Assembly (NCBI GenBank): GCA_002416285.1
Contig: DICM01000019.1
Location: forward strand, 1,632-65,631
Direction of reading: 5' to 3'
DNA length: 64,000 nucleotides
Source: Bacillales bacterium UBA5026
GTDB lineage: Bacteria > Bacillota_I > Bacilli_A > RF39 > UBA660
This document shows, one piece after another, positions 44,199 through 61,400 of the stretch. Within the stretch, counting starts at the first letter, position 1, and each line of letters begins with the position of its first letter. The notes below the pieces were generated by a model. That model made no database searches, had not been told where the DNA came from, and saw nothing but the letters and a program-made list of their open reading frames with translations. The position numbers and the translations under genes are program-made.

Positions 44199-44202
44199 TA
44201 GG

Positions 44203-44238: not shown

Positions 44239-44321
44239 ATTTGTTTCAATTTTCTTTTTTATAATAACCTTGAAAAACGATAAGAAAAATTATACAATAG
44301 TAACAGAGAATAGGTGAAAAT

Positions 44322-46016: not shown

Positions 46017-46072
46017 CAAAATTGTAATAAATATAAATGAAAAAATATGGTAAAATAAAAAAGGAGGGAACT

Positions 46073-47257
46073 ATGAAAAAAAGCATTCGCGATTTTGAAT
46101 TAAAAGGAAAAAAAGTAATTATTCGAGTTGATTTTAATGTTCCAATGGAAAATGGAATCATAACTGATGACAATCGAATCAGAGAAAGTTTAGAAACAAT
46201 CGAATATGCAGTAGATCATGGAGCGAAAGTTATTTTGCTATCGCATTTAGGAAGAATTAAAACTGAAGAAGATAAAAAAGGACATTCTTTAAAACCGATC
46301 GCTGATCGATTACAAGGTCTTATAACATCTAAAGTAATATTTGTTCCAGAGACACGAGGAGCATTGGTAGAAGAAAAAATTAATGAATTAAAATCAGGTG
46401 AAATATTATTATTAGAAAATACTAGATTTGAAGATGTAGTAGATTTAAAAGAATCGAATGATGATACGGAACTTGGTGTTTATTGGGCAAGCTTAGGTGA
46501 AATATTTATCAATGATGCTTTTGGAACTGCTCATAGAACTCATGCTTCCAATGTAGGAATTGCTCGCAATCTTCCAAGTGGAATTGGGTTTTTAATCGAA
46601 AAAGAATTAAAAGCTTTTGAACCTCTGCTAGAGAATCCGGAACATCCATTTACCATTATTCTAGGCGGAGCAAAAGTAAAAGATAAAATTGGTGTAATAT
46701 CTAATTTAGTAGAAAAAGCCGATCAAATTTTAATTGGTGGAGGAATGGCTTATACATTCTTAAAAGCTACAGGGATAGAAGTTGGATCATCTTTAGTGGA
46801 CGATTCGAGTTTAGACTTTTGTAAAAAGATACTGGAAGAATACGATCAAAAAATTATTCTTCCAATTGATTCTGTTAATGCTGATGAAATAAGTTCTAAT
46901 ACTATTCCTAATGAATGTTTTATTAGCGATATTAAACAAGGTGAGATGGGATTAGATATCGGACATAATACAGTCAAATTATTTGGACAGTATTTACGAG
47001 ATAGTAAAACGATATTATGGAATGGACCAGTCGGAGTTTTTGAATATGATAATTTTTCGAGTGGGACAGAAGGTATTTGTCAGATTTTAAATGATGTTGA
47101 CGCTAATATAATTATCGGTGGTGGGGACACTGTGGCAGCTGTTAAAAAGTTGGGTTATGAAAAGGCCATGAGCTTTTTATCAACTGGTGGCGGTGCAGCT
47201 TTAGAACTATTAGAAGGAAAAACATTGCCAGGAATTGCAGCAATAGATGACTTATGA
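46073..47257 (+). CDS. pgk: phosphoglycerate kinase
   Basis: KKVIIRVDFNVP, LSHLGR, GGGDTVAA. ATG 46073 after AAGGAGGGA. Confidence 0.95.
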   Translation: MKKSIRDFELKGKKVIIRVDFNVPMENGIITDDNRIRESLETIEYAVDHGAKVILLSHLGRIKTEEDKKGHSLKPIADRLQGLITSKVIFVPETRGALVEEKINELKSGEILLLENTRFEDVVDLKESNDDTELGVYWASLGEIFINDAFGTAHRTHASNVGIARNLPSGIGFLIEKELKAFEPLLENPEHPFTIILGGAKVKDKIGVISNLVEKADQILIGGGMAYTFLKATGIEVGSSLVDDSSLDFCKKILEEYDQKIILPIDSVNADEISSNTIPNECFISDIKQGEMGLDIGHNTVKLFGQYLRDSKTILWNGPVGVFEYDNFSSGTEGICQILNDVDANIIIGGGDTVAAVKKLGYEKAMSFLSTGGGAALELLEGKTLPGIAAIDDL

Positions 47258-48261
47258 AAATACAAAAACAACTAATTAATTTTATTGTTCTAGTTGTAAT
47301 TACCGTAGCTGTTCTTTATTTCTCTTTGAAGGATCATTTTAGAGAGATCATTCATGAAATTTTAAACTTAAATCCATTATGGTTTATATTAGCTATTTTC
47401 TTAGCTTTAGGTTATTGGCTGTTTAAATCAATTGAGTTTTGTATAGCTACCAGAAGATTCAAAAAAGAATTCACATTTCGGGAAGCAATCCGCATGACTT
47501 TATCCACTTCATTTTTTAATGCGATTACACCATTTGCTACTGGTGGACAACCCTTTCAAATCTATATGCTTAAAAAGTCGGGACTTAAACTTACGGATAG
47601 TACCAATGTCATTATTGAAAACTTTATTGTTTATCAAATTGCTCTGGTGCTATTAGGAAGCGTTGCAATTATATCTAATTTTTTCTGTCGTTTTTACAAA
47701 GAAGCTATTTTACTTAGAAATTTAGTAACACTTGGTTTTTTTATCAACACAGTTGTTGTGATAGGATTATTCCTAATTGCTTTTAATCCTAAGTTTAATC
47801 GGTGGGTTAGCAATACAGTGATTCATTTATTAGCTAAAATGCATTTTGTAAAAGATGAAAAGAAGAAAAAATCAGAATTTGAAGAATATATTTCACAATT
47901 TCATAAAGGTGCAAAATTATTACTGACAAACAAAAAGCAATTTGCCTTTGCCATTGGATTAAATTTAATAGCACTTACAGCGCAGTATTTAATCCCTGTA
48001 GTGCTACTATATAGCATGGGTGATTACACCAGTTTCGATGGCTTTTTATCAGTTACTACTAGTGCTTATGTAATGTTGATTGGATCATTTGTTCCCATAC
48101 CAGGAGGAACCGGAGGACTTGAATATGGCTTTCTAGCATTCTTCGGGAATTTTATTACAGGAAGTAAATTAAATGCAATTATGTTATTGTGGCGCGGACT
48201 TACTTATTATTTTGGATTAATTGTAGGTGGAATTGCATTTAATATGAAAGGAAAGAATTAA
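47254..48261 (+). CDS. flippase-like / LPG-synthase-TM (UPF0104) family membrane protein
   Basis: About 8 TM spans. VPIPGGTGGLEYGF motif. ATGA overlap with the pgk stop. Confidence 0.65.
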   Translation: MKIQKQLINFIVLVVITVAVLYFSLKDHFREIIHEILNLNPLWFILAIFLALGYWLFKSIEFCIATRRFKKEFTFREAIRMTLSTSFFNAITPFATGGQPFQIYMLKKSGLKLTDSTNVIIENFIVYQIALVLLGSVAIISNFFCRFYKEAILLRNLVTLGFFINTVVVIGLFLIAFNPKFNRWVSNTVIHLLAKMHFVKDEKKKKSEFEEYISQFHKGAKLLLTNKKQFAFAIGLNLIALTAQYLIPVVLLYSMGDYTSFDGFLSVTTSAYVMLIGSFVPIPGGTGGLEYGFLAFFGNFITGSKLNAIMLLWRGLTYYFGLIVGGIAFNMKGKN

Positions 48262-49494
48262 ATGAGAATAGGGATTTTTACGGATACATATCCTCCATAT
48301 ATTAATGGAGTATCAACTAGCATTGCCATGCTTGAAAAAGGACTTCGTGAGAAAGGTCATGAAGTATATATTGTAACAGTCAATCCTGATAATATGGAAT
48401 ATAAGTATGAGGAAAATGATCACATTATTAGAATTCCTGGTATTCCAATTGGAATATATGACTATAGGTTAACCGGTATCTATCCAATTCGAGCGATTAA
48501 TAAGATTAAAAAATGGAATTTAGATATTATTCATTCACATACAGAATTTGGTATTGGAACATTCGCTCGTATTATTGCTAAACAATATGATATTCCACTT
48601 GTCCACACTTATCATACGATGTATGAAGACTATGTTTATTACATTACCAAAGGTTATTTTGATAAATCCAGTAAAAAAATAGTTGAATATTTAACGAAAT
48701 TCTATTGTGACAAGACAACGAAAGAATTAATTGTACCTAGTAAAAAGACATATGATTTATTTACTCAGAAATATAAGGTTGAAAAAACGATTCATTTGGT
48801 TCCAACAGGAATTGATACAGAACGCTTTTACAAAGAGAAATTTAAGGAGTCTGCAATTGATTCTATAAGAGATGAATTAGGAATTAAAAAAGATGACTTT
48901 GTCATTCTCTATGTAGGTCGTTTAGCACATGAAAAAAGTGTAGATTTTTTAATCAAAGCACAAGTCGATCTAGTTAAAAAATATCCGAATTGTAAATTAG
49001 TCGTGGTTGGAAGTGGACCTGATTATGAAAACTTCCTAGAACTTTCAGAGAGTTTAAAATTAGCGAATAACATCATATTTACAAATGCTATTCCATATGA
49101 TGAAGTTCCTTCCTATTATCAATTAGCCAATATATTCGCAACTGCATCAACAACAGAAACACAAGGGTTAACTGTAGTAGAAGCGATGGCGGCTTCAAAG
49201 CCAGTTGTCTGTGTCAATGATGAAAGTTTTAACTGCGTCGTAGTAGATGGTCTAAATGGGCATTTATTTGAAAACAAAAAGGATTACATTGGCTGCGTTA
49301 GTGATTTGATTGAACATCCTCAAAAATGTGCGAAACTGGCAGGTCAAGCGCGGATTGCTGCTGAAAAGTATTCTTTAAAATATTATGCGGAACAAGTATT
49401 GGATGTCTATAAAGCTGCACTAGCTGGCGTGAAGAAAGAGCCTGGACTTTTTGATAAATTAATTCATGCTGTTAAAAAGAGCGACGATGAATAA
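48262..49494 (+). CDS. GT4 glycosyltransferase, diacylglycerol glucosyltransferase-like (glycolipid synthase)
   Basis: MRIGIFTDTYPPYINGVSTSI N-terminus, as in alMGS/CpoA-type enzymes. E..G....EAMA motif (TETQGLTVVEAMAASKPVV). Confidence 0.8.
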   Translation: MRIGIFTDTYPPYINGVSTSIAMLEKGLREKGHEVYIVTVNPDNMEYKYEENDHIIRIPGIPIGIYDYRLTGIYPIRAINKIKKWNLDIIHSHTEFGIGTFARIIAKQYDIPLVHTYHTMYEDYVYYITKGYFDKSSKKIVEYLTKFYCDKTTKELIVPSKKTYDLFTQKYKVEKTIHLVPTGIDTERFYKEKFKESAIDSIRDELGIKKDDFVILYVGRLAHEKSVDFLIKAQVDLVKKYPNCKLVVVGSGPDYENFLELSESLKLANNIIFTNAIPYDEVPSYYQLANIFATASTTETQGLTVVEAMAASKPVVCVNDESFNCVVVDGLNGHLFENKKDYIGCVSDLIEHPQKCAKLAGQARIAAEKYSLKYYAEQVLDVYKAALAGVKKEPGLFDKLIHAVKKSDDE

Positions 49495-50200
49495 GTATAT
49501 TATCGCTAATTTAAAAATGTATCAAATGCCCGACATGATTTCTAATTATCTCGAATCTTTAAAAGAGTTTAATAATGAAAAATTAATACTATGTCCTTCT
49601 AGCGTTTATATTCCTTATTATTTAGAAAAAGGGTATCATGTCGGAATACAGAATATCTACTTTAAGGATGTTGGACCATATACAGGGGAAATTTCTCCAT
49701 TACAGGCAAAACAATTAGGAATATCTTATGTTATAATTGGTCATAATGAGCGAAAGTTATTTGGTGAAACTGATCATCATATTAATCAAAAAGTAACGGC
49801 AGCTCTAGAAAATGATTTGAATATTATCTTGTGTATTGGTGAAACATTAGATGAGAGAAGTAACAAAGAGACAATCTTAAAAAGACAAATTCATTCAGCA
49901 CTTAAAAATATTCCACAGGAAAAAATAAAAAATATATTATTTGCCTATGAACCGATATGGGCGATCGGAACAGGTATCATTCCGGACATTGAAGAAATCG
50001 AAACAATGATTCATTATATTCAAACAGTATGTCATGAATTTTCATCTGATCCTATCAAAATTATCTATGGTGGAAGTGTCGATGAAAAAAATATTTCTAC
50101 TTTAGTTCAAATGAAAAATATTGCGGGATTTTTAATTGGATCTGCAGCAGTAAATCCTGATAAATTAATTAAAATAATAGAAGTTACTCGTGAAAAGTAA
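49487..50200 (+). CDS. tpiA: triosephosphate isomerase (divergent)
   Basis: ANLKMY (Lys), IIGHNERK (His), AYEPIWAIGTG (Glu), YGGSV. ATG 49487 overlaps the GT4 gene end by 8 nt. Confidence 0.85.
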   Translation: MNKYIIANLKMYQMPDMISNYLESLKEFNNEKLILCPSSVYIPYYLEKGYHVGIQNIYFKDVGPYTGEISPLQAKQLGISYVIIGHNERKLFGETDHHINQKVTAALENDLNIILCIGETLDERSNKETILKRQIHSALKNIPQEKIKNILFAYEPIWAIGTGIIPDIEEIETMIHYIQTVCHEFSSDPIKIIYGGSVDEKNISTLVQMKNIAGFLIGSAAVNPDKLIKIIEVTREK

Positions 50201-50250
50201 CTTCTTTATTTCTGTAAAGAAAGTGTTAAAATTTTGGTTTTTTAAAATTC

Positions 50251-50257
50251 TTCGACA
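50251..50257. promoter_or_regulatory. candidate Spo0A box (TTCGACA, reverse complement of TGTCGAA)
   Basis: Exact 7-mer about 90 nt upstream of the spo0A start. A single short match. Confidence 0.3.
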
Positions 50258-50346
50258 AAAATAGATGAATTTTGCTCTAGTAATAGGATACCTGTTTGTA
50301 GTATAATTAAATTCAAGGTAAGCAGTACTTTAGAAAGGGAATCGAT

Positions 50347-51123
50347 ATGGAAAATAGAAAAGTACTTATGGTTGATGATAATGTCAGTTTAATCAACATG
50401 GTAAAGGAGTATTTTGCTAGAAGTGAAGAAGTAAGTATTGTGTTAGAAGCTCATGATGGACAGGAAGGAATTGAATTAATTGAATCAAGACAAGAGGATT
50501 ACGATGTTATTATTCTTGATTTAATTATGCCTAAAAAAGATGGGATGTATGTCCTAGAGGAAATGAAAAAACGAGGGATTAATAAGAAGGTAATTGTAGC
50601 AACCAGTTATAATGCCAGCGATATTATTCGTGAAGTTTCAGAATATGGCGTAAGTTATTTTATTTTGAAACCATTTGAATTATCTGATTTGGAAAAACGA
50701 ATTAAAGAGGCAACTGGAAAGAATGAAAAGGATGGAAAGAATATTGATTTTTATCACAATAATCTACAAATATCAATTACTAATATCCTGCATGAACTAG
50801 GTATTCCATCACATATAAAAGGATATCAATATATCCGTGAGGGAATTGGAATACTATATGAACGTCCAGAGACAATTGGTGGAATTACCAAAGAGTTATA
50901 TCCTGAGTTAGCAGCCAAATTTGATACAACTGTATCAAGAGTAGAAAGAGCAATTCGTCATGCAATTGAGGTTAGCTGGAATCGTGGGAATTGGGATTTG
51001 ATGGAGGAAATTTTCGGACATAGTGTCGATATTGATAAAGCAAAACCAACTAATTCAGAATTTATCGTAACCATTGCTGATAAATTAAGATTAGAGGGAA
51101 ATAAAGTAGGTGCTGTAAGGTAA
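50347..51123 (+). CDS. spo0A: sporulation master regulator Spo0A
   Basis: Receiver domain (VLMVDDN..., DLIMPKKDG). Spo0A-specific C-terminal domain [12 protein letters not shown]...[20 protein letters not shown]. Confidence 0.95.
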
Positions 51124-51129
51124 TATTAC

Positions 51130-51166
51130 AAAGAAATCAGAAAATCAATTTTTTCTGATTTCTTTT
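51130..51166 (+). terminator. rho-independent terminator after spo0A
   Basis: 15-bp perfect stem AAAGAAATCAGAAAA / TTTTCTGATTTCTTT with loop TCAATT. Confidence 0.8.
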
Positions 51167-51284
51167 GTATTTAATATATGAATTTATAAAATTATTCGTT
51201 GAATTTCAAAATTGATTGTGTTAGAATGAAGGAGAATAGGATTGCTCTAGGCAAGCATACTAGATTCTAGAAGGAAGCTTTATT

Positions 51285-52940
51285 ATGAAACAAAAAAATG
51301 GTTTTACGTTGATTGAATTATTAGCGGTTATTGTAATTCTTGCAATTATTGCTTTAATTGCAACACCAATGATTTTAAGTGTAATTGATAGCGCAAAAAA
51401 AGGTGCTGTCGAATCAAGTACCTACGGATACATTGATGCAATTGAGAAATCAGATCTACAAGATATGATCGATACAGGAACTTATCAAACGAAAAAAGAT
51501 GGAACCTACGATTTAAATACGATTGGAACAGTAAACTATAAAGGAAAAAGCCCAGCATTAATTTGTGTACTTATGAAAGATGGGAGTGTTGAATCTGGAT
51601 ATTTTAAATTTGACTCTTATATTGTCGAGTATAAGAATGGAAAAGCAAAAGTAAACAGTGATTTAACAACAGTTGATTGTACGGTGACAGCTAGTGACTC
51701 TGCATTCAATATAACAAAAGGAGTGAATGCCCCACAATTAACAGAAGGTATGACACCGATTAAATGGGTTAATGGGGTGGAGACAGTGACCACAGCTGAT
51801 GATCCAGAATGGTATGACTATAATAATAAATTATGGGCAAATGTAAAGACGAAAGACGGATCTTACTGGGTATGGATACCAAGGTATGCTTATAAAATCA
51901 CAAGTGGATATCATTCTAGTACTAAAGGTACAATTGATGTAAAATTCTTAAAAGGAACAAGTGATATAGCTGTTGATAATACAAAGATTGAAAACAGTGG
52001 ATATGTAGCTGGAACAAAAGATACCTCAATGCATTATTTTACCCATCCAGCATTTCAAAATGATATTAATAGATATGGTTATTGGGTAGCAAAATTTGAA
52101 CCGAGTGTCGCAGATCAAACAGATACGTGTTATACAAGTCCGAGTTCTGCAAATTGTAATAAATCAACTTTAACAATTAAAATAATACCAAATGTAAGTA
52201 GTTACCTTAGTATTAGTGTTAAAAACGCCTATAACACAAGTGTAGCAATGAAAATAAAGAGAAACATTTATGGATGGAATGAAAATCAAGTTGATTCTCA
52301 TATGGTAACAAGCCTAGAATGGGGAGCAATCTATTATTTAACTTTATCGATATATGGAGCGAATACAAATGAGGTTTATATCAATAATAGCAATACATAT
52401 ATAACGGGATGCGCGGGAAATACAGCTTCTGCGACAGCTTATAATGGGTGTCAAAATGCTTATAATACAGAGATAGGAGTAAAAGCAAGTACAACTTGGA
52501 ATATTACAGGAGTTTATGATATGAGTGGTGGAGCTTATGAGAGAACAATGGCAGTCTATAATAACTTATTAGGTATGAGTGAATTTACAGCTGAAGAATA
52601 TAACCGTTTACCTAGTGACCACATTACAAAATATACAACATCTAATGCTAATTTATTGGAAGATAAAGGAATGGATTATGATGCAACAGTGTACGGTGAT
52701 GGAGTATATGAAACAAGTAGTGGTGCATATCGTTTAAGTAGCCAAAGAGGATGGGTTGGAATAGAACAAGGGGAATGGGGTAAAGAAGAGAGTTATCTAC
52801 CATATGTCTATGGACCATGGATTATCCGTGGTGGGTACTTTAATAGCACCACAGGAGCTGGTATTGGAGGATTCAATAATCCAGATGGTAGCACTTTCAG
52901 TTACGCTTCATTTCGCCCTATAGTTTCATCTCTACAATAG
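51285..52940 (+). CDS. prepilin-signal protein with pilin-like stalk and FGE/SUMF1-like C-terminal domain
   Basis: MKQKNGFTLIELLAVIVILAIIALIATP (canonical class III signal). The first ~125 aa are homologous to the N-terminus of the 58484 ORF. The C-terminal ~400 aa are paralogous to 37205..38611 (YDMSGGAYER, IRGGYF, SFRPIV). Confidence 0.7.
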   Translation: MKQKNGFTLIELLAVIVILAIIALIATPMILSVIDSAKKGAVESSTYGYIDAIEKSDLQDMIDTGTYQTKKDGTYDLNTIGTVNYKGKSPALICVLMKDGSVESGYFKFDSYIVEYKNGKAKVNSDLTTVDCTVTASDSAFNITKGVNAPQLTEGMTPIKWVNGVETVTTADDPEWYDYNNKLWANVKTKDGSYWVWIPRYAYKITSGYHSSTKGTIDVKFLKGTSDIAVDNTKIENSGYVAGTKDTSMHYFTHPAFQNDINRYGYWVAKFEPSVADQTDTCYTSPSSANCNKSTLTIKIIPNVSSYLSISVKNAYNTSVAMKIKRNIYGWNENQVDSHMVTSLEWGAIYYLTLSIYGANTNEVYINNSNTYITGCAGNTASATAYNGCQNAYNTEIGVKASTTWNITGVYDMSGGAYERTMAVYNNLLGMSEFTAEEYNRLPSDHITKYTTSNANLLEDKGMDYDATVYGDGVYETSSGAYRLSSQRGWVGIEQGEWGKEESYLPYVYGPWIIRGGYFNSTTGAGIGGFNNPDGSTFSYASFRPIVSSLQ

Positions 52941-53154
52941 TTTCCAAAAGGATCTTTCTGAGTAAATAGATTTTATTCAGTAGTAAAATGACCACACTAG
53001 AGTTTATATTTTTAATAGCAGTACTATTGGTTACTTGCTATTTTTTTGTGAATGAAAACAAAATGTCTAAAAATGAGAAATCCAACCAAATCCATATTAT
53101 TTTTGGTAACAAATATCATATTTTATGGTAAAATATTGAACGGAGATGATTATT

Positions 53155-56007
53155 ATGAAACCGACGATTCTTTGTATTTTAGATGGTGTTGGATTCCGTG
53201 AGGAAATCCATGGAAATGCTGTCAAACAAGCAAATATGAAGACCTTTAATAAATTAATGGAAGAATACCCACATAGTTTGCTAGAAGCAAGTGGTGAATT
53301 AGTGGGATTACCAGCAGGTCAAATGGGCAATAGTGAAGTTGGGCACATGAACATTGGTGCAGGCAGAATTGTGTATCAACCACTACAACTAATTAATGAG
53401 ATGATAAAAGATCAGTCTTTTTATGATAACGAAGAATTAAAAAAGGCTATGAATCATGCAAAGGAAAATCACTCTAGATTACATCTATTTGGATTACTTT
53501 CTGATGGAGGTATTCATTCGAGCATCAACCATTTATTTGCTCTTTTAGATATGTGTAAAAAAGAAGGCGTAGAAGAAGTCTATCTGCATATGTTTATGGA
53601 TGGAAGAGATACTCTTCCTGATGTCGCTTTGACTTACCTAAAACGATTAGAAGAAAAATGTAAGGAATTACATCTTGGTAAGTTAGCATCAATATCAGGG
53701 AGATACTATGCGATGGACCGAGACAATCGTTGGGATCGTATCGAGAAAGCATATCGTGCGATTGTAGATGGTGAAGGAGAAACTTACACAAATTATGAAG
53801 AAGCGATTCGTCATAACTACGAACAAAATAAACTAGATGAGTTTATTATTCCAGCTGTTTTCCACAAAGAAGGAACTGTGCAAGAAAATGACGCGATGAT
53901 TTTATTTAATTTTCGTCCAGATCGCGCAAGAGAATTATTTAAAGCTTTGACAAATCCTGAGTTCAATGAATTTGATCATACAGAATTTCATAATGTCCCA
54001 TTAGTAACGATGATGCCAGTAAGTGATGAGGTGATTGGAGCACCTGCTTTTGAACTTCAAAAATTAACAAACACTTTAGGAGAATATGTAAGTGGATTTG
54101 GTAAAAAGCAGTTACGCATTGCTGAAACAGAGAAATATGCTCACGTTACTTACTTCTTCGATGGAGGAATCGAAAAGGATTTACCAAACTGCAAACGAGT
54201 TTTAATTCCATCACCTAAAGTAGCAACTTACGACCTACAACCAGAAATGAGTGCCAATGAATTAACAGATCAATTAATAAAAGAACTAGATCAAGATTAC
54301 GATCTTGTTATTTTAAACTTTGCTAATGGAGATATGGTTGGACATACAGGTGATATGAATGCAACGATAAAGGCATTGGAAACAGTGGATCAATGTTTAA
54401 GCAGAATCCAAGAAAAAATCGACGAGTTGGGTGGTGTATTAGTTGTTACAGCAGATCATGGAAACAGTGATGTTATGCTGGATGAAGAAGAGCATGTTAT
54501 AACATCACATTCTACAAGCAAAGTTCCATTTATTGTAACGAAGAAAGATATTTCACTCAAAGACGGTAAATTAGGCGATATAGCACCTACCTTATTAACT
54601 TTGATGGAGTTACCTATTCCAAAAGAAATGTCTGGACAAAATTTGATTGAACAACAGGTGTTACCCAGGCGCAAACCATTAAAAAAATTAAGTAAGGAAT
54701 TCATATTTATTGTTTTATCAATCATTTCGATACTTACATTTTTATGTTTTTATGGATATCGTTTTTTTCACTATCGTAATTTAGAACTTCATCCTCCTAA
54801 GACAGATCGTACTCTAGCTACTAAATTACTGGATGCAGAGCATTTGAAAGAAGGAAATTTAGTCAAGGATGGAAAAGATTATCGCTATACTGGAGCTCTG
54901 AATAATAATTATGTTTGGTATTCTGGTAGACTTTGGAGAATTGTAGAGATTTATGAAGATAAAAAGATAAAGTTAGTTAGCGAGGATTCTATAACTTCAC
55001 TGGTTTGGGATTCTTCTAGCAACGATTATTTAACCTCTAATATTCGTTCTTATTTAAATACTACCGACGAACCTAATTCTGGAGTTATCTATCGTAGTCT
55101 TTCAAAACAAGAAATTTATTTAACAACGGCTGATTCCTGTATTGATACTATAAAAGATAGTAAAAGCACGTGTAAAAAAACTGTGAATGATCCCGTTACT
55201 TTATTAACTTATTCAGATTATGTTTTATCTGGAGGGAATGAAGGTTATCTAAATAATGGAAATTATTTTTGGCTATTAAACCCTTCTGAAGATGGAGTAT
55301 GGTATGTCTTTGGAGAAGGTGGAATCAAAAGCAAAAGTAATGATTCGGAAAAGTCTCTTTATGGAATAAGACCTGTTATCTATTTAAATAGTACAGTAAA
55401 CTTTAAAAATGGAGATGGAACAGAATCTAATCCATATACTATCGAAGATATAACTACATCTACTCTAGTTAATAAGAGTATTGGAGAGTATGTATCTTAT
55501 AGTGGTTATCTTTTTCGAATTTTGGCGAAAAATGGCGAAGGCGTAAAATTATTAAAAGAAGAACCTATTTCTTATAATGGTGAATTAGTTTCAAAAGTGT
55601 TTTCTAAAACAAGTACGAGTTATAATCCAAATGAATGGGATAGTATTGCTTACTACTTAAATAAAACCTTTTATAAAGACTTAAAGAACAAAGAATATTT
55701 GATTAAGGGGACTTGGTATAGAGGTGCTTACAATAAAGAAACTGGATATGATTATAAAACAATCTATAGTGATCCTATAAAGGCATATATTGGCCTTCCA
55801 CAATTAGATGAAATTACATTTCATAAAGAAGCCTTATTAACTATGACACAGGTTGATAATGACCTTTTATATGTGGTTAAAAGTAATGGGAGTGGGTATA
55901 CACTATCTTTAGATGAAGAAAGTATCATTTATCCAGCACTTTATTTAAAAAGTGATTTACAAATAACAGGAGGTGACGGAAGTAAGGGGAATCCTTATAC
56001 ATTATGA
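53155..56007 (+). CDS. gpmI: 2,3-bisphosphoglycerate-independent phosphoglycerate mutase fused to a TM segment and two extracytoplasmic 'WRI...RPV...NPY' modules
   Basis: Residues 1-500 are a complete GpmI (ILDGVG, NSEVGHMNIGAGR, ADHGN, ...GDIAPTLLTLMELPIPKEMSGQNLIE). The frame continues without a stop into KKLSKEFIFIVLSIISILTFLCFYGYRFF (TM, 54700-54765) and about 415 further aa. ATG 53155 is preferred. Confidence 0.85.
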   Translation: MKPTILCILDGVGFREEIHGNAVKQANMKTFNKLMEEYPHSLLEASGELVGLPAGQMGNSEVGHMNIGAGRIVYQPLQLINEMIKDQSFYDNEELKKAMNHAKENHSRLHLFGLLSDGGIHSSINHLFALLDMCKKEGVEEVYLHMFMDGRDTLPDVALTYLKRLEEKCKELHLGKLASISGRYYAMDRDNRWDRIEKAYRAIVDGEGETYTNYEEAIRHNYEQNKLDEFIIPAVFHKEGTVQENDAMILFNFRPDRARELFKALTNPEFNEFDHTEFHNVPLVTMMPVSDEVIGAPAFELQKLTNTLGEYVSGFGKKQLRIAETEKYAHVTYFFDGGIEKDLPNCKRVLIPSPKVATYDLQPEMSANELTDQLIKELDQDYDLVILNFANGDMVGHTGDMNATIKALETVDQCLSRIQEKIDELGGVLVVTADHGNSDVMLDEEEHVITSHSTSKVPFIVTKKDISLKDGKLGDIAPTLLTLMELPIPKEMSGQNLIEQQVLPRRKPLKKLSKEFIFIVLSIISILTFLCFYGYRFFHYRNLELHPPKTDRTLATKLLDAEHLKEGNLVKDGKDYRYTGALNNNYVWYSGRLWRIVEIYEDKKIKLVSEDSITSLVWDSSSNDYLTSNIRSYLNTTDEPNSGVIYRSLSKQEIYLTTADSCIDTIKDSKSTCKKTVNDPVTLLTYSDYVLSGGNEGYLNNGNYFWLLNPSEDGVWYVFGEGGIKSKSNDSEKSLYGIRPVIYLNSTVNFKNGDGTESNPYTIEDITTSTLVNKSIGEYVSYSGYLFRILAKNGEGVKLLKEEPISYNGELVSKVFSKTSTSYNPNEWDSIAYYLNKTFYKDLKNKEYLIKGTWYRGAYNKETGYDYKTIYSDPIKAYIGLPQLDEITFHKEALLTMTQVDNDLLYVVKSNGSGYTLSLDEESIIYPALYLKSDLQITGGDGSKGNPYTL

Positions 56008-57020
56008 AAAAGAAAAATAAAATAGCAATTTTTACTTTAATCTTTATTGACCTTTGTATCATGATGTTTCTTTTTTTGAGTTACGGACCAATTAATTATT
56101 TCCGTGATCTTTTGATTACAACAGCGATGTCAACCAAGAGTCATAAGTATCTCGCATATACTCTATATGATGATGGAACAATTCTATCGGTATTAAAAAA
56201 TAATTATACAAAAGAAATAACAGATGATACTGATACAAGTCATATTAAATTAACAGACATTAAAGAACAAGATAATTATGATTCAAAATATGAGGAACAG
56301 ATCTTAAAGAAAGATGAAGAGAATGATCTTTATAAAGTAATTTCACTTAGTGGAAATGGATACAAAGGATATGTAGTAGCAATCTATGATCCCACTAGAA
56401 TATCACTAGTAACTTCAAAATATTTAGGATCAAGTGGTCAGTTTTTAAATACGATGGCAAAAGAACAAAGTGCGAAAGTAGCGATTAATGCTGCTGGATT
56501 TGTCGATATTGGTGGAGCTGGTGATGGAGGAACTCCGACTGGACAAATGATTCAAAATGGTAAACTGATATGGAATGGTGCCGCAACTGGCTGGGGCGGA
56601 GGACTGGCAGGATTTACCAAAGATGGTATTTTGATGCTGACACATAGTAATGCTGCAGAAGCAATCAAATCCGGAATGGTCGATGGTGTTGAATTTGGAC
56701 CATTTCTTGTGGTAAATGGACAAGCTGCTGAGATAAAAGGTAACGGTGGAAGAGGTGTTCATCCACGTACTATTTTAGCGCAACGACAAGATGGTATCGT
56801 TCTATTCTTTATTATCGATGGAAGACAACCTGGTTACAGTATTGGCATTAGTTTAGCTGATATGACAGATTTATTATTAAAATACAAAGCTTATAATGCA
56901 GTAAATTTAGATGGTGGAGCTTCTAGTAGCCTAAATATTAATGGAAAAATAATAAATAAACCATGCGCAGTGAGTGCTACTGGAGAAAGACCAATCCCTG
57001 CTGCTTGGATGTTAAAATAA
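56004..57020 (+). CDS. phosphodiester glycosidase (DUF2233) family protein, membrane anchored
   Basis: N-terminal TM. AINAAGF, GFTKDGILML, FGPFLVVNG, HPRT, IDGRQPGYS, NLDGGASS. ATGA overlap with the upstream stop. Confidence 0.7.
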   Translation: MKKKNKIAIFTLIFIDLCIMMFLFLSYGPINYFRDLLITTAMSTKSHKYLAYTLYDDGTILSVLKNNYTKEITDDTDTSHIKLTDIKEQDNYDSKYEEQILKKDEENDLYKVISLSGNGYKGYVVAIYDPTRISLVTSKYLGSSGQFLNTMAKEQSAKVAINAAGFVDIGGAGDGGTPTGQMIQNGKLIWNGAATGWGGGLAGFTKDGILMLTHSNAAEAIKSGMVDGVEFGPFLVVNGQAAEIKGNGGRGVHPRTILAQRQDGIVLFFIIDGRQPGYSIGISLADMTDLLLKYKAYNAVNLDGGASSSLNINGKIINKPCAVSATGERPIPAAWMLK

Positions 57021-57112: not shown

Positions 57113-57427
57113 ATGGCAAGACCAAGTGGAACTAAAAATGTAATGAGAACCCCTGAAGAAAAAGAAAAAATAGTACTTGAATATTTAAACACTAAATGTA
57201 GTCAACAAACAATTGCTGAAAAGTATGAAATAATGAGAAGAGTACTGCAACAATGGATACAAAAATATGAACAGTACGGAATTGTTGGATTAAAATCAAA
57301 AACAGGGAAACATCAAAATTCTAATGCAGGAAAATATAATCGACATCCATCTGAAGAAGAAAAATTGAAACAGAAAATAACAAGGTTGGAAATCGAGGTA
57401 GCCCGATTAAAAAAGGTTATCAGGTGA
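57113..57427 (+). CDS. IS3-family transposase OrfA (HTH / leucine zipper)
   Basis: RTPEEKEKIVLEYL...SQQTIAEKYEI...LQQWIQKYEQYG and a C-terminal heptad region ending at the slippery site. Confidence 0.85.
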   Translation: MARPSGTKNVMRTPEEKEKIVLEYLNTKCSQQTIAEKYEIMRRVLQQWIQKYEQYGIVGLKSKTGKHQNSNAGKYNRHPSEEEKLKQKITRLEIEVARLKKVIR

Positions 57428-57530
57428 AAGGAGTTGGGGATCAAAAGGAATACGTTACTATATTCGATGTGAATATGAAATAATTGACTATTTTAGTAAT
57501 AATTATTCTATAACTACTCTTTGTAAGTTA

Positions 57531-58340
57531 ATGTCAGTAAGTAAATCGGGTTTCTATAAATGGAAATATAGGAAATCTAACCCATCAACAAGAGAATTAT
57601 CCAGGCAAGAAAATGTCAGACTGATAAAAGAAGTCCATAATAGACATCCTTCACATGGTTACGGATGGATAAATGCTTTTATTAAAAATAAATACGGAAA
57701 GGTTTTTAGTGATAATTATGTTCATCGAATCTGTAAATATGAAGGTATTCGGTCCCAAGGCAAACATTATCGATGGAAAAATCCAGGAGAAGAACAATAT
57801 AAATCCAATAATTTAATTTGGAATGAGTGGAGTTGTTTAACTAGACCATTAGAGGTAATCGTTTCTGATATGACGGCATTTCGTGTAAAAGGAATTTACT
57901 ATGAATTAGCATTGTACTTTGATGCATGGAACAAAGAAATCATTGGTTATGGTCTTGATTCCAGAAAAGGAAGTACAAAAACATATTATGAAGGCTTGTA
58001 CCAAGTTTTAGACAAAATAAAAGACCAAACCACTGATCTAGTAATTCTACACACAGATCAAGGATCGGTCTACGCATCGAAGTCATACAATGACCTCGTA
58101 GAAAATTATAACATAGAAAGGTCTATGAGTCGAGCTGGAACTCTAACTGATAATCCCGTTAACGAATCCTTAAATGGTTGGATTAAAGAGGAGTTGTATA
58201 TTGATTTTGATTTAAAACATTGTAATAATGTATCAAGATTAATTGAAAAATATATTTACTATTTTAATAATGAACGGCCTTCCTATGCCTTAAACTATAA
58301 AACCCCAATTCAATTTAAACATGAATTAGGGTTTCTATGA
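57531..58340 (+). CDS. IS3-family transposase OrfB (DDE/rve core), apparently not reachable by the canonical -1 frameshift
   Basis: VSKSGFYKW, VSDMTAF (D), LHTDQGSVY (D), NPVNESLNGWIKEE (E). See the IS finding for the extra frame disruption at about 57463-57470. Confidence 0.8.
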   Translation: MSVSKSGFYKWKYRKSNPSTRELSRQENVRLIKEVHNRHPSHGYGWINAFIKNKYGKVFSDNYVHRICKYEGIRSQGKHYRWKNPGEEQYKSNNLIWNEWSCLTRPLEVIVSDMTAFRVKGIYYELALYFDAWNKEIIGYGLDSRKGSTKTYYEGLYQVLDKIKDQTTDLVILHTDQGSVYASKSYNDLVENYNIERSMSRAGTLTDNPVNESLNGWIKEELYIDFDLKHCNNVSRLIEKYIYYFNNERPSYALNYKTPIQFKHELGFL

Positions 58341-58483: not shown

Positions 58484-61400
58484 ATGAAGAAAAATGGATT
58501 TACATTAATTGAATTGTTAGCGGTAATTGTGATAGTAGGAGTGTTATCCTTAATCGCAACTCCAGTTATTTTAGGAGTGATTGAGAGTGCTCGAAGAGGA
58601 GCAGCTGTCAATAGTACTTACGGTTATGTGGAGGCAATTGAAAAGTCTAGTCTTCAAGATATGATTGATAAAAGTGAATATATCACGAAGAAAGATGGAA
58701 CCTATAGTGCAGAGACAATTAAACCTGTAAAATATAAGGGAAACGATCCAGTCGATGTATGTGTAACCATTCAAAATGGAGAAGTTTACTCTGGTTCATT
58801 TCAGTTTGGCAAATATGTTGTTGATTATGAAGATGGAAAAGCAGCGATTAATGATGAAAAAGAAAATGCAGGTTGTGGAGGAAATAGTGAGAATCCAGAA
58901 GAGAAACCAAAAGATAGTGATGATTTAAAAGAAGACACCAAAGTAAAAAATGGAGAGAATTATTATATCGGAGCAAACCCAAAGAACTGGGTCTTATTTG
59001 GTAGGGCCGATGAGAGTGATAGTAGTAGTCTACTAATGTGGCGAATTATCAAGATTGATAAAAACGGAATTAAGATGGTCTATGAAGGAATCCAAAATGG
59101 AGAGAATGTACCGTTAGAGGATGGAAGAGCATTGTTAAATGGAACGATGGGAGTTGCTTGGAATAGTAATGGTACAAACCTTTGGAATGAGAGTGATTTA
59201 AAAGAGAAACTAACTAGTTGGTTATCCAGAATTGCAGTAGTAGATATGAGTAAATATGTTGAAAGTACAACATGGAATATTGGAGGAATACCTGATCTTA
59301 ATCCAACGACATTAAGAACCTTTTTAGAGTATGGGAATATTGATAGTAATGGATTAGGAGGAACATATCAAGGAATCACGGATACGAAAAGTCCAATTGG
59401 AATGATAAGTCCATGGGATTATATGTATACGAGTAGTAATGAGGAATGTAGTAAGAGTTATGTATCAGCAGGAACAAGTAATGAGTGTTCACTTGATAGT
59501 GAAGGAAGATTAAATAACTTTTTATATAAAAACAAATATTCTTATTGGACGATGAATGCAGTAAATAGTGCAAGTGATCAAGCATGGAATATCACGAATT
59601 CAGGAATTATTGCCAGTAGACAAGTGAACTATAGTATTTATTCTGTAAGACCAGTATTAAATTTAAAACTTGATACGAAGTTTGTTACTGGCGATGGAAG
59701 TATTGAAAATCCATATATCGTAGAAGATTATCTAGCAAATCTATTCGTGAAACCAGAAATCAAATTAAATGGAGAGAAAACAGTTGTTCTTTACCAAGGA
59801 GAACAATATGTTGATGCCGGAGCAACGGCATACGACGAACAAGATGGAGATATTAGTAATAAAATTACGACCGAAAGCAATCTGGATGTGAACAAAGTAG
59901 GAAGTTACACAATTACATATAATGTAACCGATAGTGATGGGAATAAGGCAATACCGGTAACTAGAATCGTGAAAGTAGTAGAAAAAGATACCCCAAGAAT
60001 TACCTTGAATGGAGAAAATCCTAGTTATATAACAGTTGGAAATACCTATACTGAATTAGGAGCCAAAGCGATGGATCCAAACTATGGAGACATTAGTAGT
60101 TCGATTGTTATTAATGGAATTGTAGATACGAATACACTTGGAACTTATTATTTAACGTATCATGTAACGAATCAAGATGGACTAGAGGCAATACCAGTAG
60201 AACGAAGAGTGGTGGTGAAGGCATCTACTCCTAAAATTACCCTAAATGGAAGTAGCTTAGCTTTAGTAGAGGTTGGAGCTTCTTATATGGAAGAAGGAGC
60301 AATCGCTAGTGACTCAGTGGAAGGTGATTTAACAGATCGAATTAGAATCACTGGAAATGTAGATACCAGTATGGTTGGCATCTATCAAATCCGCTATTCT
60401 GTAACAAACTTTTATGGTGCGAATGCATATGTAGATAGAAGAATCAATGTCGTTGGGGTAGCAGGTCCCGAAATTACTTATACACCAAATGAAGAAGAAA
60501 GTGCGAAAGTAGGACAAAGTACTACAATTGAAGTAAAAAAGAAAAGTTATGATATTGATTCGAAGACACTAAAATATTTTACTTATAATAAGGTATCAGG
60601 AGCTTTGCCTAGCTATGAGACAATAGAAGAGTTTGAACGTCTTTTTCGGACAAGTTATAAAGATAGAGAAATATTAAAAATTGGAAAAGGAACAGGAGAA
60701 TACTATTTCTATGCAATGGCAAAAGATGTCTATAAAGATACAACTTATAAAGAATCAGGATTATTCCGTTTAGATAATTTTGCTCCTATCATTACATTAA
60801 ATACTGGGGCAAATAGAATTTTAATTAATAGCACATATATAGATCCAGGAGCGACAGCATATGATGCCTATTTTGATGGAGATTTAACGAATCAAATAAC
60901 AGTTCAAAATAAAGTCAACACGAGTAAAGAGGGGATTTATCAAGTAATTTATAAGGTAAGTGATAGTGTTGGAAATGAAACAAAAAAAGTCCGTAATATC
61001 GAAGTCTATCATTCTGTTCCAACCATTGGGCTAATTGGAGGAAGTAAAATAAAAGTACGCTATGGTAGCAGTTACATAGATCCAGGGTATACAGCAATGG
61101 ATGAGATTGATGGTGATTTAACAAGTCAGGTGAAAGTAACTGGAACTGTCGATACTTCGAGAGAAGGAAGTTATGAAGTTATATATCAAGTAAAAAACTC
61201 GTTAGGATATGAAACAACGAAGACTAGAATTGTTGAAGTATATATTCCAAGTCCAGTGATTACAATCAGAGGGGCAAATCCAGCGAAAGTGAGAGTAACG
61301 AGTACTTATAATGATGCTGGAGCAACTGCTCTTGATGAAATCGATGGGGATCTTACTAATAAGATTACTGTAATTAGTAATATTAATACTATGGTAGAAG

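What the first reader, a model, noticed from the sequence alone, without database searches (positions are those of the whole stretch)
53155..56007. Glycolytic enzyme GpmI fused in frame to a TM helix and two extracellular adhesin-type modules
Seen in sequence: a complete GpmI (residues 1-500) ends with the usual ...PKEMSGQNLIE tail. It runs on without a stop into QQVLPRRKPLKKLSKE, a hydrophobic helix FIFIVLSIISILTFLCFYGYRFF (54700-54765), and about 415 further residues.

Those residues form two tandem modules:
- YRYTGALNNNYVWYSGRLWRIVEI...YGIRPVIYLNSTVNFKNGDGTESNPYTIED.
- GEYVSYSGYLFRILAK...IYPALYLKSDLQITGGDGSKGNPYTL.

The same module type occurs in the giant pilin-like ORF. An A7 run lies at 54681-54687, just before the TM, so a 1-nt sequencing or assembly error cannot be excluded. 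However, the junction has no stop in the gpmI frame, and I saw no independent RBS or ATG for a separate downstream gene.

Inference: either a real fusion that tethers GpmI to the membrane, or loss of the gpmI stop merging it with a neighbouring surface-protein gene.
Basis: partly seen in the sequence, partly recalled or inferred. Interest (0 to 1): 0.7.

Follow-up and report, generated by a model that had tools for sequence, protein, structure and literature searches.

The report
Membrane-tethered glycolytic enzyme, conserved gene fusion
In a group of uncultured gut bacteria, the glycolytic enzyme phosphoglycerate mutase is permanently joined, through one membrane-spanning helix, to a lectin-like surface protein; this is a real gene fusion conserved across many species, not a sequencing error.

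Summary
One ORF (53155-56007, 950 aa) encodes a complete iPGM/GpmI, a 16-residue basic linker, a single TM helix and two homologous ectodomain modules.

It is not an A7-run or lost-stop artefact. The junction DNA is identical in two independent assemblies. 56 protein clusters at 44-100% identity, from NCBI, ENA, Logan and JGI, share the same architecture with no stop.

Relatives show the intermediate stages:
- gpmI and the 445-460 aa membrane protein ("X") as separate genes with a ~60-nt spacer and a Shine-Dalgarno site;
- TAAnATG or overlapping stop/start;
- the fused gene;
- in two relatives, a decayed GpmI relic still in frame ahead of X.

All 16 iPGM active-site residues checked are retained. 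The ectodomain is a tandem DUF6273 fold (described in the literature as C-type-lectin-like). X is followed by a NAGPA-family gene in 51 of 58 loci, whatever the state of gpmI.

Most likely reading: a bitopic N-in/C-out protein with an active cytoplasmic PGM tethered to the membrane and a ligand-binding ectodomain that works with NAGPA. The fusion probably arose by stop loss between translationally coupled neighbours.

No description was found in the literature searched. I rate it a new variant of a known kind, of moderate interest.

The parts
53106..53134 (+). Promoter-like site (GTAACA-17-TAAAAT with TG before the -10) just upstream of the fused gene; tentative
   Evidence: Consensus scan. 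The number of such sites in the region is not above the shuffled expectation, so this is only a candidate.
53141..53144 (+). Shine-Dalgarno-like GGAG, 10 nt upstream of ATG 53155
   Evidence: Sequence read. Gene callers in public assemblies also start the protein at this ATG (950 aa).
53155..56007 (+). Fused CDS gpmI::X, 950 aa (stop codon included in the coordinates)
53155..54651 (+). Complete cofactor-independent phosphoglycerate mutase (iPGM/GpmI) domain; predicted cytoplasmic
   Evidence: Pfam PF06415 and PF01676. End-to-end alignment to 1EJJ, E 3.8e-175. All 16 active-site residues checked are present. AF2 pLDDT is mostly above 90. No N-terminal signal peptide.
54652..54699 (+). Basic linker QQVLPRRKPLKKLSKE. 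It contains CAA 54652 and CAG 54655 (where the ancestral stop would lie), the in-frame GTG 54658, and the A7 run 54681-54687
   Evidence: This is the only low-confidence stretch in the full-length AF2 model (aa 506-515 in 953-aa numbering, 54661-54690). The 15 residues preceding the hydrophobic peak carry net charge +5.
54700..54768 (+). Single transmembrane helix FIFIVLSIISILTFLCFYGYRFF (signal-anchor, N-in/C-out predicted)
   Evidence: KD19 maximum of 2.52, and the only segment above 1.6. AF2 places a long helix at 54694-54789. The segment aligns with the N-terminal TM of stand-alone homologues.
54769..54858 (+). Juxtamembrane helix extension and short stalk
   Evidence: AF2 secondary structure.
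54859..55446 (+). Ectodomain module 1 (DUF6273-like fold), ending ...YGIRPVIYLNSTVNFKNGDGTESNPYTIE
   Evidence: Homologues hit PF19789 over this module. A nearly invariant Cys pair lies in this module.
55447..56004 (+). Ectodomain module 2 (divergent copy of module 1), ending ...IYPALYLKSDLQITGGDGSKGNPYTL
   Evidence: 26% identity to module 1, E 3e-7. AF2 pLDDT is about 90.
56004..57020 (+). Downstream partner gene: TM-anchored NAGPA-family phosphodiester glycosidase, overlapping the fused gene's stop by 4 nt (ATGA)
   Evidence: Pfam PF09992, E 2.2e-38. It lies directly downstream of X in 51 of 58 related loci regardless of gpmI state.

Best explanation
The ORF is a real, evolutionarily conserved gene fusion, predicted to encode a bitopic membrane protein.

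**Predicted layout.** The N-terminal 499 residues are a complete, apparently catalytically competent iPGM that folds in the cytoplasm. A short K/R-rich linker and one signal-anchor helix hold it at the inner face of the membrane. The C-terminal ~410 residues are two tandem DUF6273 modules (a fold the literature describes as C-type-lectin-like) displayed outside the cell.

**Origin.** In this lineage of uncultured gut Bacilli, the membrane protein X and its partner NAGPA came to lie directly downstream of gpmI, inside a glycolytic gene cluster that is interleaved with envelope genes. The spacer then shrank to a coupled or overlapping stop/start, and loss of the stop merged the two genes. In the window, CAA/CAG sit exactly where TAA/TAG would end a normal GpmI.

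**What is shown.** The fusion is real. It is conserved across divergent lineages. The intermediate states exist in relatives. The catalytic residues are intact. There is a single TM with positive-inside charge bias. The ectodomain has the DUF6273 fold. X and NAGPA are syntenic.

**What is inferred.** The two halves keep their separate jobs: PGM in glycolysis, and the ectodomain with NAGPA binding or processing a cell-surface or environmental glycan or other ligand. The fusion then mainly provides X's translation start and expression, and incidentally tethers PGM to the membrane.
For: **Reality of the fusion**
- 56 clusters of 842-959 aa cover 100% of the query at 44-100% identity.
- Aligned junctions all run ...PKEMTGxxLI[KEQ], then a mostly 4-15-residue basic linker (~80 in P0176), then the TM, with no stop.
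- 14 GTDB species-representative MAG loci are fused at the DNA level.
- All six members of the window's own 90% cluster are 950 aa.
- The junction DNA, including the A7 run, is identical in L091; the encoded protein is identical in L088.

**Origin**
- Separate adjacent genes occur in L004, L006, L027-L029, L033, L041, L042, L046 and L047.
- Their spacers range from ~60 nt with a Shine-Dalgarno site, to TAAnATG, to an 11-nt overlap.
- The fused state is phylogenetically clustered: 4-9 Fitch changes against 21-33 with shuffled labels.

**Translation as one chain (indirect)**
- No conserved internal Met/Val or Shine-Dalgarno site at the junction in fused homologues.
- Decayed GpmI relics of 345 aa (P0025/L001) and ~165 aa (L016) remain open and in frame ahead of X.

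**Enzyme intact**
- Alignment to 1EJJ.
- 16 of 16 active-site residues are conserved in the window and in 56-57 of 58 fused proteins.

**Topology**
- A single TM, no signal peptide, and charge of +5 on the N-side against +2 on the C-side.
- 46 of 56 fused proteins obey the positive-inside rule.
- Stand-alone X proteins start about 10 residues before the same TM.
- Full-length AF2 has pLDDT 89 with only the linker disordered.

**Ectodomain**
- AF2 pLDDT 88, pTM 0.84.
- Foldseek matches the DUF6273-bearing T. ramosa IgA peptidase 9qa6 at E 4e-6.
- Foldseek matches phage DUF6273 proteins down to E 3.4e-11.
- 17 of 40 family members hit PF19789.

**Partner**
- NAGPA lies directly downstream in 51 of 58 loci.
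Against: - No expression, proteomic or topology data exist, so a single 108-kDa polypeptide is inferred, not shown.
- The window has an in-frame GTG (54658) where stand-alone homologues begin, so some internal initiation cannot be excluded.
- I could not check whether these genomes carry a second PGM, so 'housekeeping glycolytic enzyme' is inferred from conserved residues and from its place in the gap-pgk-tpiA cluster.
- The window's own ectodomain does not reach any Pfam threshold.
- The ligand of the ectodomain and the substrate of NAGPA are unknown.
- Monophyly of the main fused clade has weak bootstrap support, so the number of fusion events (one, two or more) is unsettled.
- Retention across a whole clade could reflect a selected functional coupling rather than a neutral ratchet.
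Confidence: 0.72

Rival explanations
1. Sequencing or assembly artefact: a 1-nt indel in the A7 run, or a miscalled stop codon, falsely merges two genes in this assembly.
For: An A7 homopolymer lies at 54681-54687. Some relatives have two separate genes.
Against: - The same junction DNA is found in an independent assembly (L091), and the identical protein in another (L088).
- All six members of the 90% cluster are 950 aa.
- 56 divergent clusters and 14 species-representative MAG loci are fused, with quite different linker sequences.
- The A7 run lies downstream of where GpmI should already have stopped, so an indel there could not explain the missing stop.
Confidence: 0.01
2. One ORF but two products: X is still made separately, by internal initiation at GTG 54658 or by proteolytic cleavage in the basic linker. 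Most GpmI would then be soluble and the fusion would have little physiological consequence.
For: An in-frame GTG sits at the position where stand-alone X proteins start. The linker is basic and predicted to be disordered, so it could be protease-accessible.
Against: - No Shine-Dalgarno-like sequence precedes the GTG.
- Fused homologues have no conserved Met/Val or start codon at the junction.
- In L001 and L016 a non-functional GpmI relic stays open and in frame ahead of X. This is expected only if translation of X depends on the upstream start.
- Internal initiation could not release GpmI from the membrane in any case, because the upstream ORF has no stop.
Confidence: 0.12
3. Functional coupling across the membrane. 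The protein would be a receptor-like enzyme, analogous in layout to PknB/PrkC kinases. Ligand binding or clustering of the ectodomain would modulate PGM activity or localisation, or membrane-localised PGM would serve a local need such as a glycolytic metabolon at the membrane or supply for envelope synthesis. Selection would then be for the fusion itself.
For: - The fusion is retained with an intact active site across lineages that have diverged to ~35-40% identity in the ectodomain.
- A second, long-linker group of fused proteins (P0171/P0173/P0176/P0180) never joins the main fused group in bootstrap trees, which hints at recurrence.
- The whole glycolytic cluster is interleaved with envelope genes.
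Against: - The conserved partner of X is NAGPA, not GpmI: 51 of 58 loci, most of them without gpmI nearby.
- Some lineages let the GpmI part decay while keeping X.
- Others have tpiA-spo0A-X-NAGPA with no gpmI between.
- The linker is short, variable and disordered, with no conserved coupling element.
- iPGM is a monomer with no known allosteric regulation (my own knowledge of the family).
Confidence: 0.1
4. GpmI is displayed on the cell surface as an anchored version of the 'moonlighting' surface glycolytic enzymes, i.e. the opposite topology or export of the N-terminal domain.
For: Glycolytic enzymes, including PGM, are often reported on bacterial surfaces (a literature class seen, e.g. PMC4481411).
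Against: - No signal peptide at the N-terminus, and only one TM.
- The charge bias places the N-side inside.
- Stand-alone X proteins have the same TM as an N-terminal signal-anchor, with the lectin-like modules as the exported part.
- The nearly invariant Cys pair is in the ectodomain modules.
- The DUF6273 proteins matched are a secreted IgA peptidase and phage receptor-binding proteins.
Confidence: 0.03

Closest known systems
Canonical bacterial iPGM / GpmI (e.g. Geobacillus stearothermophilus, PDB 1EJJ)
   Same: The N-terminal 499 residues align over the whole enzyme (E 3.8e-175). Both Pfam domains are present, as are all 16 active-site residues checked. The gene lies in a gap-pgk-tpiA-gpmI cluster.
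   Different: Canonical GpmI is a soluble protein of ~510 aa that ends at ...LIK. Here it continues into a linker, a TM helix and a 410-aa ectodomain. Among the best 150 of 9,455 GpmI-like representatives (E <= 1e-10), only one has this architecture.
Stand-alone 'X' proteins of related gut Bacilli (N-terminal TM anchor plus two DUF6273-like modules, 435-460 aa, followed by a NAGPA gene)
   Same: The C-terminal 449 residues align over 97-100% of their length at up to 38-39% identity. They share the TM, the two modules, the GxGTxxxPY module ends and the NAGPA neighbour.
   Different: In those genomes X has its own start codon and Shine-Dalgarno site. It is either next to a separate gpmI or elsewhere in the genome.
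DUF6273 domains: the N-terminal domain of the Thomasclavelia ramosa IgA peptidase (PDB 9qa6; PMC12402451), and phage receptor-binding or DGR-target proteins ('tentaclins', PMC10743442)
   Different: Sequence identity is only 11-17%. The window's own sequence is below the Pfam threshold. I did not look for a DGR. The context differs too: anchored by a TM and fused to a glycolytic enzyme, rather than to a peptidase or a phage tail.
Bitopic receptor-type enzymes such as PknB/PrkC Ser/Thr kinases (cytoplasmic catalytic domain, one TM, extracellular PASTA repeats); comparison from my own knowledge
   Same: The same layout: an N-terminal cytoplasmic enzyme of several hundred residues, a single TM, and tandem extracellular ligand-binding modules.
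   Different: This is an analogy of layout only, with no homology. Nothing indicates that iPGM activity is regulated across the membrane.
Fusions of glycolytic enzymes, e.g. the PGK-TIM fusion protein of Thermotoga maritima; from my own knowledge
   Same: Neighbouring genes of a glycolytic operon merged into one reading frame, with the enzyme retaining activity.
   Different: Those cases join two consecutive soluble pathway enzymes. Here the partner is a functionally unrelated, membrane-anchored surface protein.

Membership tests
iPGM / GpmI (cofactor-independent phosphoglycerate mutase) | Both family domains (iPGM_N PF06415 inserted in Metalloenzyme PF01676) score above Pfam gathering scores | tested here: met
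   274.7 bits (cut-off 27) and 260.3 bits (cut-off 24.3).
iPGM / GpmI (cofactor-independent phosphoglycerate mutase) | Full-length collinearity with a solved iPGM | tested here: met
   Query 4-501 against 1EJJ residues 3-509 of 511, E 3.8e-175.
iPGM / GpmI (cofactor-independent phosphoglycerate mutase) | Catalytic Ser62, metal ligands (D12, D403, H407, D444, H445, H462) and substrate-binding residues (H66, H123, R153, D154, R185, R191, R261, R264, K336); residue list from my own knowledge of the 1EJJ literature | tested here: met
   All 16 are present in the window, and in 56-57 of 58 fused homologues. They are lost only in the degenerate P0025.
iPGM / GpmI (cofactor-independent phosphoglycerate mutase) | Mn-dependent 3PG <-> 2PG mutase activity | not testable with these tools
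   Needs an enzyme assay or complementation.
DUF6273 (PF19789) | Match to the Pfam HMM at or above the gathering score (23.5 bits) | tested here: not met
   The window's C-terminal 449 aa gave no Pfam match even at E <= 10.
DUF6273 (PF19789) | Clear homologues of the window protein match the HMM | tested here: met
   P0123 (59% identical fused homologue) scores 24.5 bits and P0043 scores 31.6 bits. 17 of 40 family members match at E <= 0.01.
DUF6273 (PF19789) | Fold similarity to DUF6273-containing proteins | tested here: met
   AF2 model with pLDDT 88.3. Foldseek: 9qa6 at E 4e-6 (its N-terminal domain is annotated DUF6273 in PMC12402451). Several BFVD DUF6273 proteins match at E 3.4e-11 to 7e-5.
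C-type lectin-like fold | Significant structural match to solved C-type lectin domains | tested here: inconclusive
   PDB C-type lectin domains (DEC205, Endo180, SP-A/SP-D, CL-K1) appear only at E 0.2-3 with low TM-scores, for a whole two-module query. The C-lec assignment rests on PMC10743442. A per-module search was not run.
Bitopic (type II, N-in/C-out) membrane protein | A single hydrophobic TM segment, no cleavable signal peptide, positive-inside charge bias | tested here: met
   One segment with KD19 > 1.6 (aa 511-520 window starts). N-terminal KD maximum is 0.72. Flank charges are +5 (N-side) and +2 (C-side). 46 of 56 fused homologues have the same bias.
Bitopic (type II, N-in/C-out) membrane protein | Experimentally determined topology | not testable with these tools
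   Needs PhoA/LacZ or protease-accessibility experiments.
Conserved gene fusion ('Rosetta-stone' type) | The two components exist as separate genes in other genomes | tested here: met
   Separate gpmI (499-501 aa) and X (445-452 aa) in L004 and L006. Eight further species-representative loci have them adjacent but separate. X occurs without gpmI nearby in up to 58 loci.
Conserved gene fusion ('Rosetta-stone' type) | The fused reading frame is maintained across divergent lineages and independent assemblies | tested here: met
Conserved gene fusion ('Rosetta-stone' type) | Expressed as a single polypeptide | not testable with these tools
   Support is indirect only: no internal start signals, and in-frame GpmI relics in L001 and L016.
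X-NAGPA two-gene envelope module | A NAGPA-family gene lies immediately downstream of X | tested here: met
   Window 56004-57020 overlaps the stop by 4 nt. The same adjacency holds in 51 of 58 loci.

The most novel reading that the evidence does not exclude
The fusion is selected for its own sake. It would be a receptor-like, obligately membrane-tethered glycolytic enzyme in which the lectin-like ectodomain (with NAGPA) senses or binds an extracellular or cell-wall glycan. Through clustering or localisation, this would tune PGM activity or place lower glycolysis at the membrane in these reduced-genome gut Bacilli. That would be a direct physical link between surface recognition and central carbon flux.
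Probability: 0.08. Interest if true: 0.85.

Novelty: new variant of a known kind. Interest (0 to 1): 0.52.

Why it matters
**Central metabolism.** If the fused protein is the only PGM in these organisms, an essential step of glycolysis is carried out by an integral membrane protein. That is an unusual arrangement for central metabolism. It would affect how these abundant but uncultured gut Bacilli are modelled, and how iPGM is viewed as a drug target.

**Gene fusion as a process.** The locus captures a complete natural series in extant genomes:
- separate genes;
- translationally coupled genes;
- fused genes;
- a fused gene in which the enzyme half has decayed to a relic that appears to be retained only because it carries the translation start.

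This makes it a clean case study of fusion as a ratchet.

**Annotation.** Members sampled across several clusters carry no source name. By domain-based annotation they would be labelled simply as phosphoglycerate mutase, which hides a 450-residue surface-exposed DUF6273 ectodomain and its conserved NAGPA partner.

Tried and rejected
- **C-terminal half as query.** The search returned only stand-alone proteins at 38% identity or less, plus one odd 765-aa protein. It missed all the closer fused homologues, presumably a quirk of the word index. On that result alone the window would have looked like a unique merger. The full-length query corrected this.
- **Locus search with the divergent alignment A1.** Redone with a closer alignment, A2.
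- **Within-species dN/dS.** Only 10 nt differences between the window and L091, so the estimate (overall 0.17) is uninformative.
- **Exact-bipartition bootstrap for one monophyletic fused clade.** Support was only 2 of 100, so I do not claim a single fusion event. I replaced this with a parsimony count of state changes.
- **Regex extraction of other GpmI C-terminal tails.** Mostly failed; redone.
- **Pfam scan of the 118-sequence alignment.** Over the size limit; run on A1 instead.
- **Search for a dPGM (GpmA) or a second gpmI within the 64-kb window.** None found, but 64 kb is too little to conclude anything.
- **Literature searches (for bacterial NAGPA function).** No description of a membrane-tethered or fused iPGM was found, and nothing useful on NAGPA function.
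- **Alternative genetic code.** Considered and rejected as an explanation: no stop codon of any kind is present at the junction.
- **Terminator within the fusion.** Considered and rejected: none predicted between 52800 and 57300.


Full report
**1. The observation**

The window has one open frame from 53146 to the stop at 56007. The probable start is ATG 53155, ten bases after a GGAG, giving the 950-aa protein that public gene calls also report.

Pfam finds only the two iPGM domains, over aa 5-489. This part aligns from end to end with the solved Geobacillus stearothermophilus enzyme (query 4-501 against residues 3-509 of 511, E 3.8e-175). The extra sequence therefore begins exactly where a normal GpmI ends.

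The junction reads ...aat ttg att gaa | caa cag gtg tta ccc agg cgc aaa cca tta aaa aaa tta agt aag gaa | ttc ata ttt.... There is no stop. The A7 run is at 54681-54687. CAA and CAG sit where a TAA or TAG would terminate a normal GpmI.

A single strongly hydrophobic segment follows, FIFIVLSIISILTFLCFYG (KD19 2.52, the only segment above 1.6). After it come two homologous modules (26% identity, E 3e-7). The same module type occurs twice in the giant prepilin-type ORF that starts at 58484 and runs off the window. Every element of the finder's description is confirmed.

**2. It is not an artefact**

A search with the full-length protein returned 56 clusters of 842-959 aa that cover 100% of the query at 44-100% identity. 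They come from NCBI, ENA, Logan and JGI assemblies. Aligned, all of them run from the GpmI tail (...PKEMTGxxLI[KEQ]) through a lysine/arginine-rich linker into the TM helix without a stop. The linker is 4-15 residues in most (about 80 in P0176), and linker sequences differ widely.

The window's own 90%-identity cluster has six members, all 950 aa. The identical protein is on an independent Logan contig (L088, SRR1749867). A strain variant from another run (L091, SRR31316412) has identical junction DNA, including the A7 run. A 75%-identical relative (L089/L090) has the same fused gene in the same neighbourhood.

At the DNA level, 14 of the 80 GTDB species-representative loci recovered are fused.

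**3. How it arose**

All related loci come from uncultured gut or rumen Bacilli MAGs. These are variously labelled Bacilli, Bacillales, 'Tenericutes', Clostridium sp. CAG:914 and Candidatus Onthousia.

The C-terminal half, here called X, is normally a stand-alone protein of 435-460 aa with an N-terminal signal-anchor about 10 residues from its start. Three locus states exist:
- X with no gpmI within the available upstream flank (up to 58 loci; a few contigs are too short to tell);
- gpmI immediately upstream but separate (8 species representatives, plus L004-L007);
- fused.

The separate-adjacent loci form a graded series:
- L004 and L006 have ~60-nt spacers with a Shine-Dalgarno site.
- L029 has the Shine-Dalgarno site inside the end of gpmI.
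- L028 and L041 read TAAnATG.
- L047 has the X start 11 nt upstream of the gpmI stop, in another frame.

In a neighbour-joining tree of X, most fused sequences group together, next to the clade with tightly coupled separate genes. That clade has 100% bootstrap support. A second group of fused proteins with long linkers (P0171, P0173, P0176, P0180; 95% bootstrap) never joins the main group.

Strict monophyly of the main fused group is not supported by bootstrap (2 of 100). The state is nevertheless strongly clustered: 4-9 parsimony changes, against 21-33 for shuffled labels. The data therefore point to a few events, one or two fusions plus some secondary losses, and not to scattered errors.

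**4. Evidence that the fused frame is used as such**

Fused homologues have no conserved Met/Val codon or Shine-Dalgarno site at the junction. The window's GTG at 54658 is lineage-specific and has no Shine-Dalgarno site.

More telling are two related loci nested among the fused sequences, which carry a decayed GpmI. P0025/L001 keeps 345 aa with most catalytic residues lost. L016 keeps only ~165 aa, with recognisable N-terminal (MKPVVLCIINGD) and C-terminal (TTPTMLEILNIKKAKNIIGSSLF) remnants. Both relics remain open and in frame with TM+X. This is what one expects if X now depends on the upstream start codon. It would be hard to explain if X were translated on its own.

**5. The enzyme half**

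All 16 residues I checked are present in the window and in 56-57 of 58 fused proteins. In 1EJJ numbering they are D12, S62, H66, H123, R153, D154, R185, R191, R261, R264, K336, D403, H407, D444, H445 and H462. The list comes from my own knowledge of the iPGM structural literature.

The gene sits in a glycolytic cluster: gap 43101, pgk 46037, tpiA 49466. No second PGM is present in the window, but the rest of the genome could not be searched.

Full-length AF2 gives pLDDT 89.2, and the only low-confidence stretch is the linker (aa 506-515 of the 953-aa frame). It is followed by a long helix at 517-548. The pTM of 0.54 fits independent domains.

**6. The ectodomain half and its partner**

AF2 on X alone is confident (pLDDT 88.3, pTM 0.84).
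- The only significant PDB match is the Thomasclavelia ramosa IgA peptidase 9qa6 (E 4e-6). Its N-terminal domain is annotated DUF6273 (PMC12402451).
- In the viral library, the best matches are DUF6273 and receptor-binding proteins of gut phages, down to E 3.4e-11.
- PMC10743442 describes this fold as C-type-lectin-like and as a target of diversity-generating retroelements.
- Direct matches to solved C-type lectin domains were weak (E >= 0.2).
- The window's own sequence does not reach the Pfam threshold, but 17 of 40 family members do.

A nearly invariant cysteine pair lies in module 1. The GxGTxxxPY ends of both modules are conserved.

The gene after X is a TM-anchored NAGPA-family phosphodiester glycosidase. 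It overlaps the stop by 4 nt in the window. It follows X directly in 51 of 58 loci, whether or not gpmI is nearby. The functional partner of X is therefore NAGPA, not GpmI.

**7. Mechanism proposed**

Shown:
- a conserved in-frame fusion of a complete iPGM, a basic linker, one TM and a tandem DUF6273 ectodomain;
- positive-inside charge bias (+5 against +2 in the window; 46 of 56 homologues);
- no signal peptide.

Inferred:
- The GpmI domain folds in the cytoplasm.
- The TM acts as a signal-anchor that exports the C-terminal modules, as it does in stand-alone X.
- PGM continues to work in glycolysis while held within a few nanometres of the membrane.
- The ectodomain, with NAGPA, binds or processes a glycan or other surface ligand.
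- The fusion most likely began as stop-codon loss between translationally coupled genes. It then became hard to reverse because X lost its own start signals.

I put about 0.7 on this whole picture, and above 0.95 on the fusion being real.

**8. Rivals**

- Artefact: about 0.01.
- Two products from one ORF, by internal initiation or linker cleavage: about 0.12.
- Selected functional coupling across the membrane, i.e. a receptor-like enzyme or a membrane glycolytic metabolon: about 0.1.
- Surface display of GpmI: about 0.03.

Evidence for and against each is given in the rival entries.

**9. Comparison with what is known**

The N-terminal half is a bona fide member of the iPGM family; all testable defining features are met. 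The C-terminal half belongs to the DUF6273 fold family by homologue transitivity and by structure, but not by its own Pfam score.

The overall layout resembles bitopic receptor enzymes such as PknB/PrkC, by analogy only. As an evolutionary event it resembles operon-neighbour fusions such as Thermotoga PGK-TIM (my own knowledge).

I found no paper describing a membrane-tethered or X-fused iPGM in the held library. Among the best 150 of 9,455 GpmI-like representatives (E <= 1e-10) in a 1.84-billion-protein library, only one has this architecture.

The proteins already sit unannotated in public databases. The novelty is therefore in recognising the architecture: a new variant of known kinds (iPGM; gene fusion), not a new kind of system.

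**10. Verdict**

Interest is moderate (0.52). It is an unusual, apparently undescribed architecture for an essential glycolytic enzyme, with an unusually complete set of evolutionary intermediates. The evidence favours an operon-accident-plus-ratchet origin over a new mechanism. The key functional points remain untested: a single polypeptide, the sole PGM in the genome, and the ligand.

Noticed in passing
window 43101-57020: The glycolytic cluster is interleaved with envelope and surface genes. The order is gap (43101-44198), Laminin_G_3 protein (44322-46016), pgk (46037-47257), LPG_synthase_TM protein (47254-48261), GT4 glycosyltransferase (48262-49494), tpiA (49466-50200), spo0A (50347-51123), pilin-like gene (51285-52940), gpmI::X, NAGPA. 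The same order occurs in a 75%-identical relative (L089), which lacks the pilin-like gene. Parts of it (tpiA-spo0A-...-gpmI-X) recur in many MAGs.
   Followed up: partly
window 58484-64000 (runs off the end): A giant ORF of more than 1,839 aa (at least 1,965 aa on L088). It has a type IV prepilin-like N-terminus (MKKNGFTLIELLAVIV...), two DUF6273-like modules (aa ~154-414 and ~1431-1652) and many Ig-like repeats of the GxxYxDxGAxAxDxxDGDLT type, seen by eye. A second, 551-aa protein with the same N-terminus and the N_methyl motif lies at 51285-52940. Pilin-leader proteins of this size are unusual.
   Followed up: partly
window 57113-58340: IS3-type transposase in two ORFs (HTH_Tnp_1/HTH_28, then rve) between NAGPA and the giant ORF. 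It is present in L088, but in the strain variant L091 the next ORF starts 114 nt after NAGPA, leaving no room for it. It therefore looks like a recent strain-specific insertion.
   Followed up: partly
L001 6001-8298 (P0025) and L016 5518-7287: In two related lineages the GpmI part of the fusion has decayed, to 345 aa (catalytic residues lost) and to ~165 aa (only N- and C-terminal remnants). It stays in frame with TM+X and is followed by NAGPA.
   Followed up: yes
L010, L024, L050, L051: Loci with tpiA-spo0A-X-NAGPA and no gpmI between spo0A and X. In these genomes gpmI has been lost from, or never entered, this position. Where their PGM is encoded is unknown.
   Followed up: no
P0178 (793 aa), P0185/P0186 (727 aa): Other atypical GpmI architectures in the database. 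P0178 has a ~290-aa N-terminal extension that begins with a TM-like segment. P0185 has a partial second GpmI-like repeat after the normal C-terminus.
   Followed up: no
L031 467-3235: A fused locus (UMGS900 MAG) in which the frame stops at 2431 while the X match continues to 3235. This is a frameshift or stop within X: either a pseudogene or an assembly error.
   Followed up: no
window 50347-51123: A full-length Spo0A (receiver domain plus Spo0A_C) lies between tpiA and gpmI. It is 66-84% identical across these MAGs. This high conservation is notable, given that several of the MAGs are labelled 'Tenericutes'.
   Followed up: no
tool behaviour, vs 12: The word-indexed homologue search with the C-terminal half alone did not list any of the 56 closer fused proteins, including the 100%-identical one. 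The full-length query found them. Conclusions drawn from a single such search can be misleading.
   Followed up: yes
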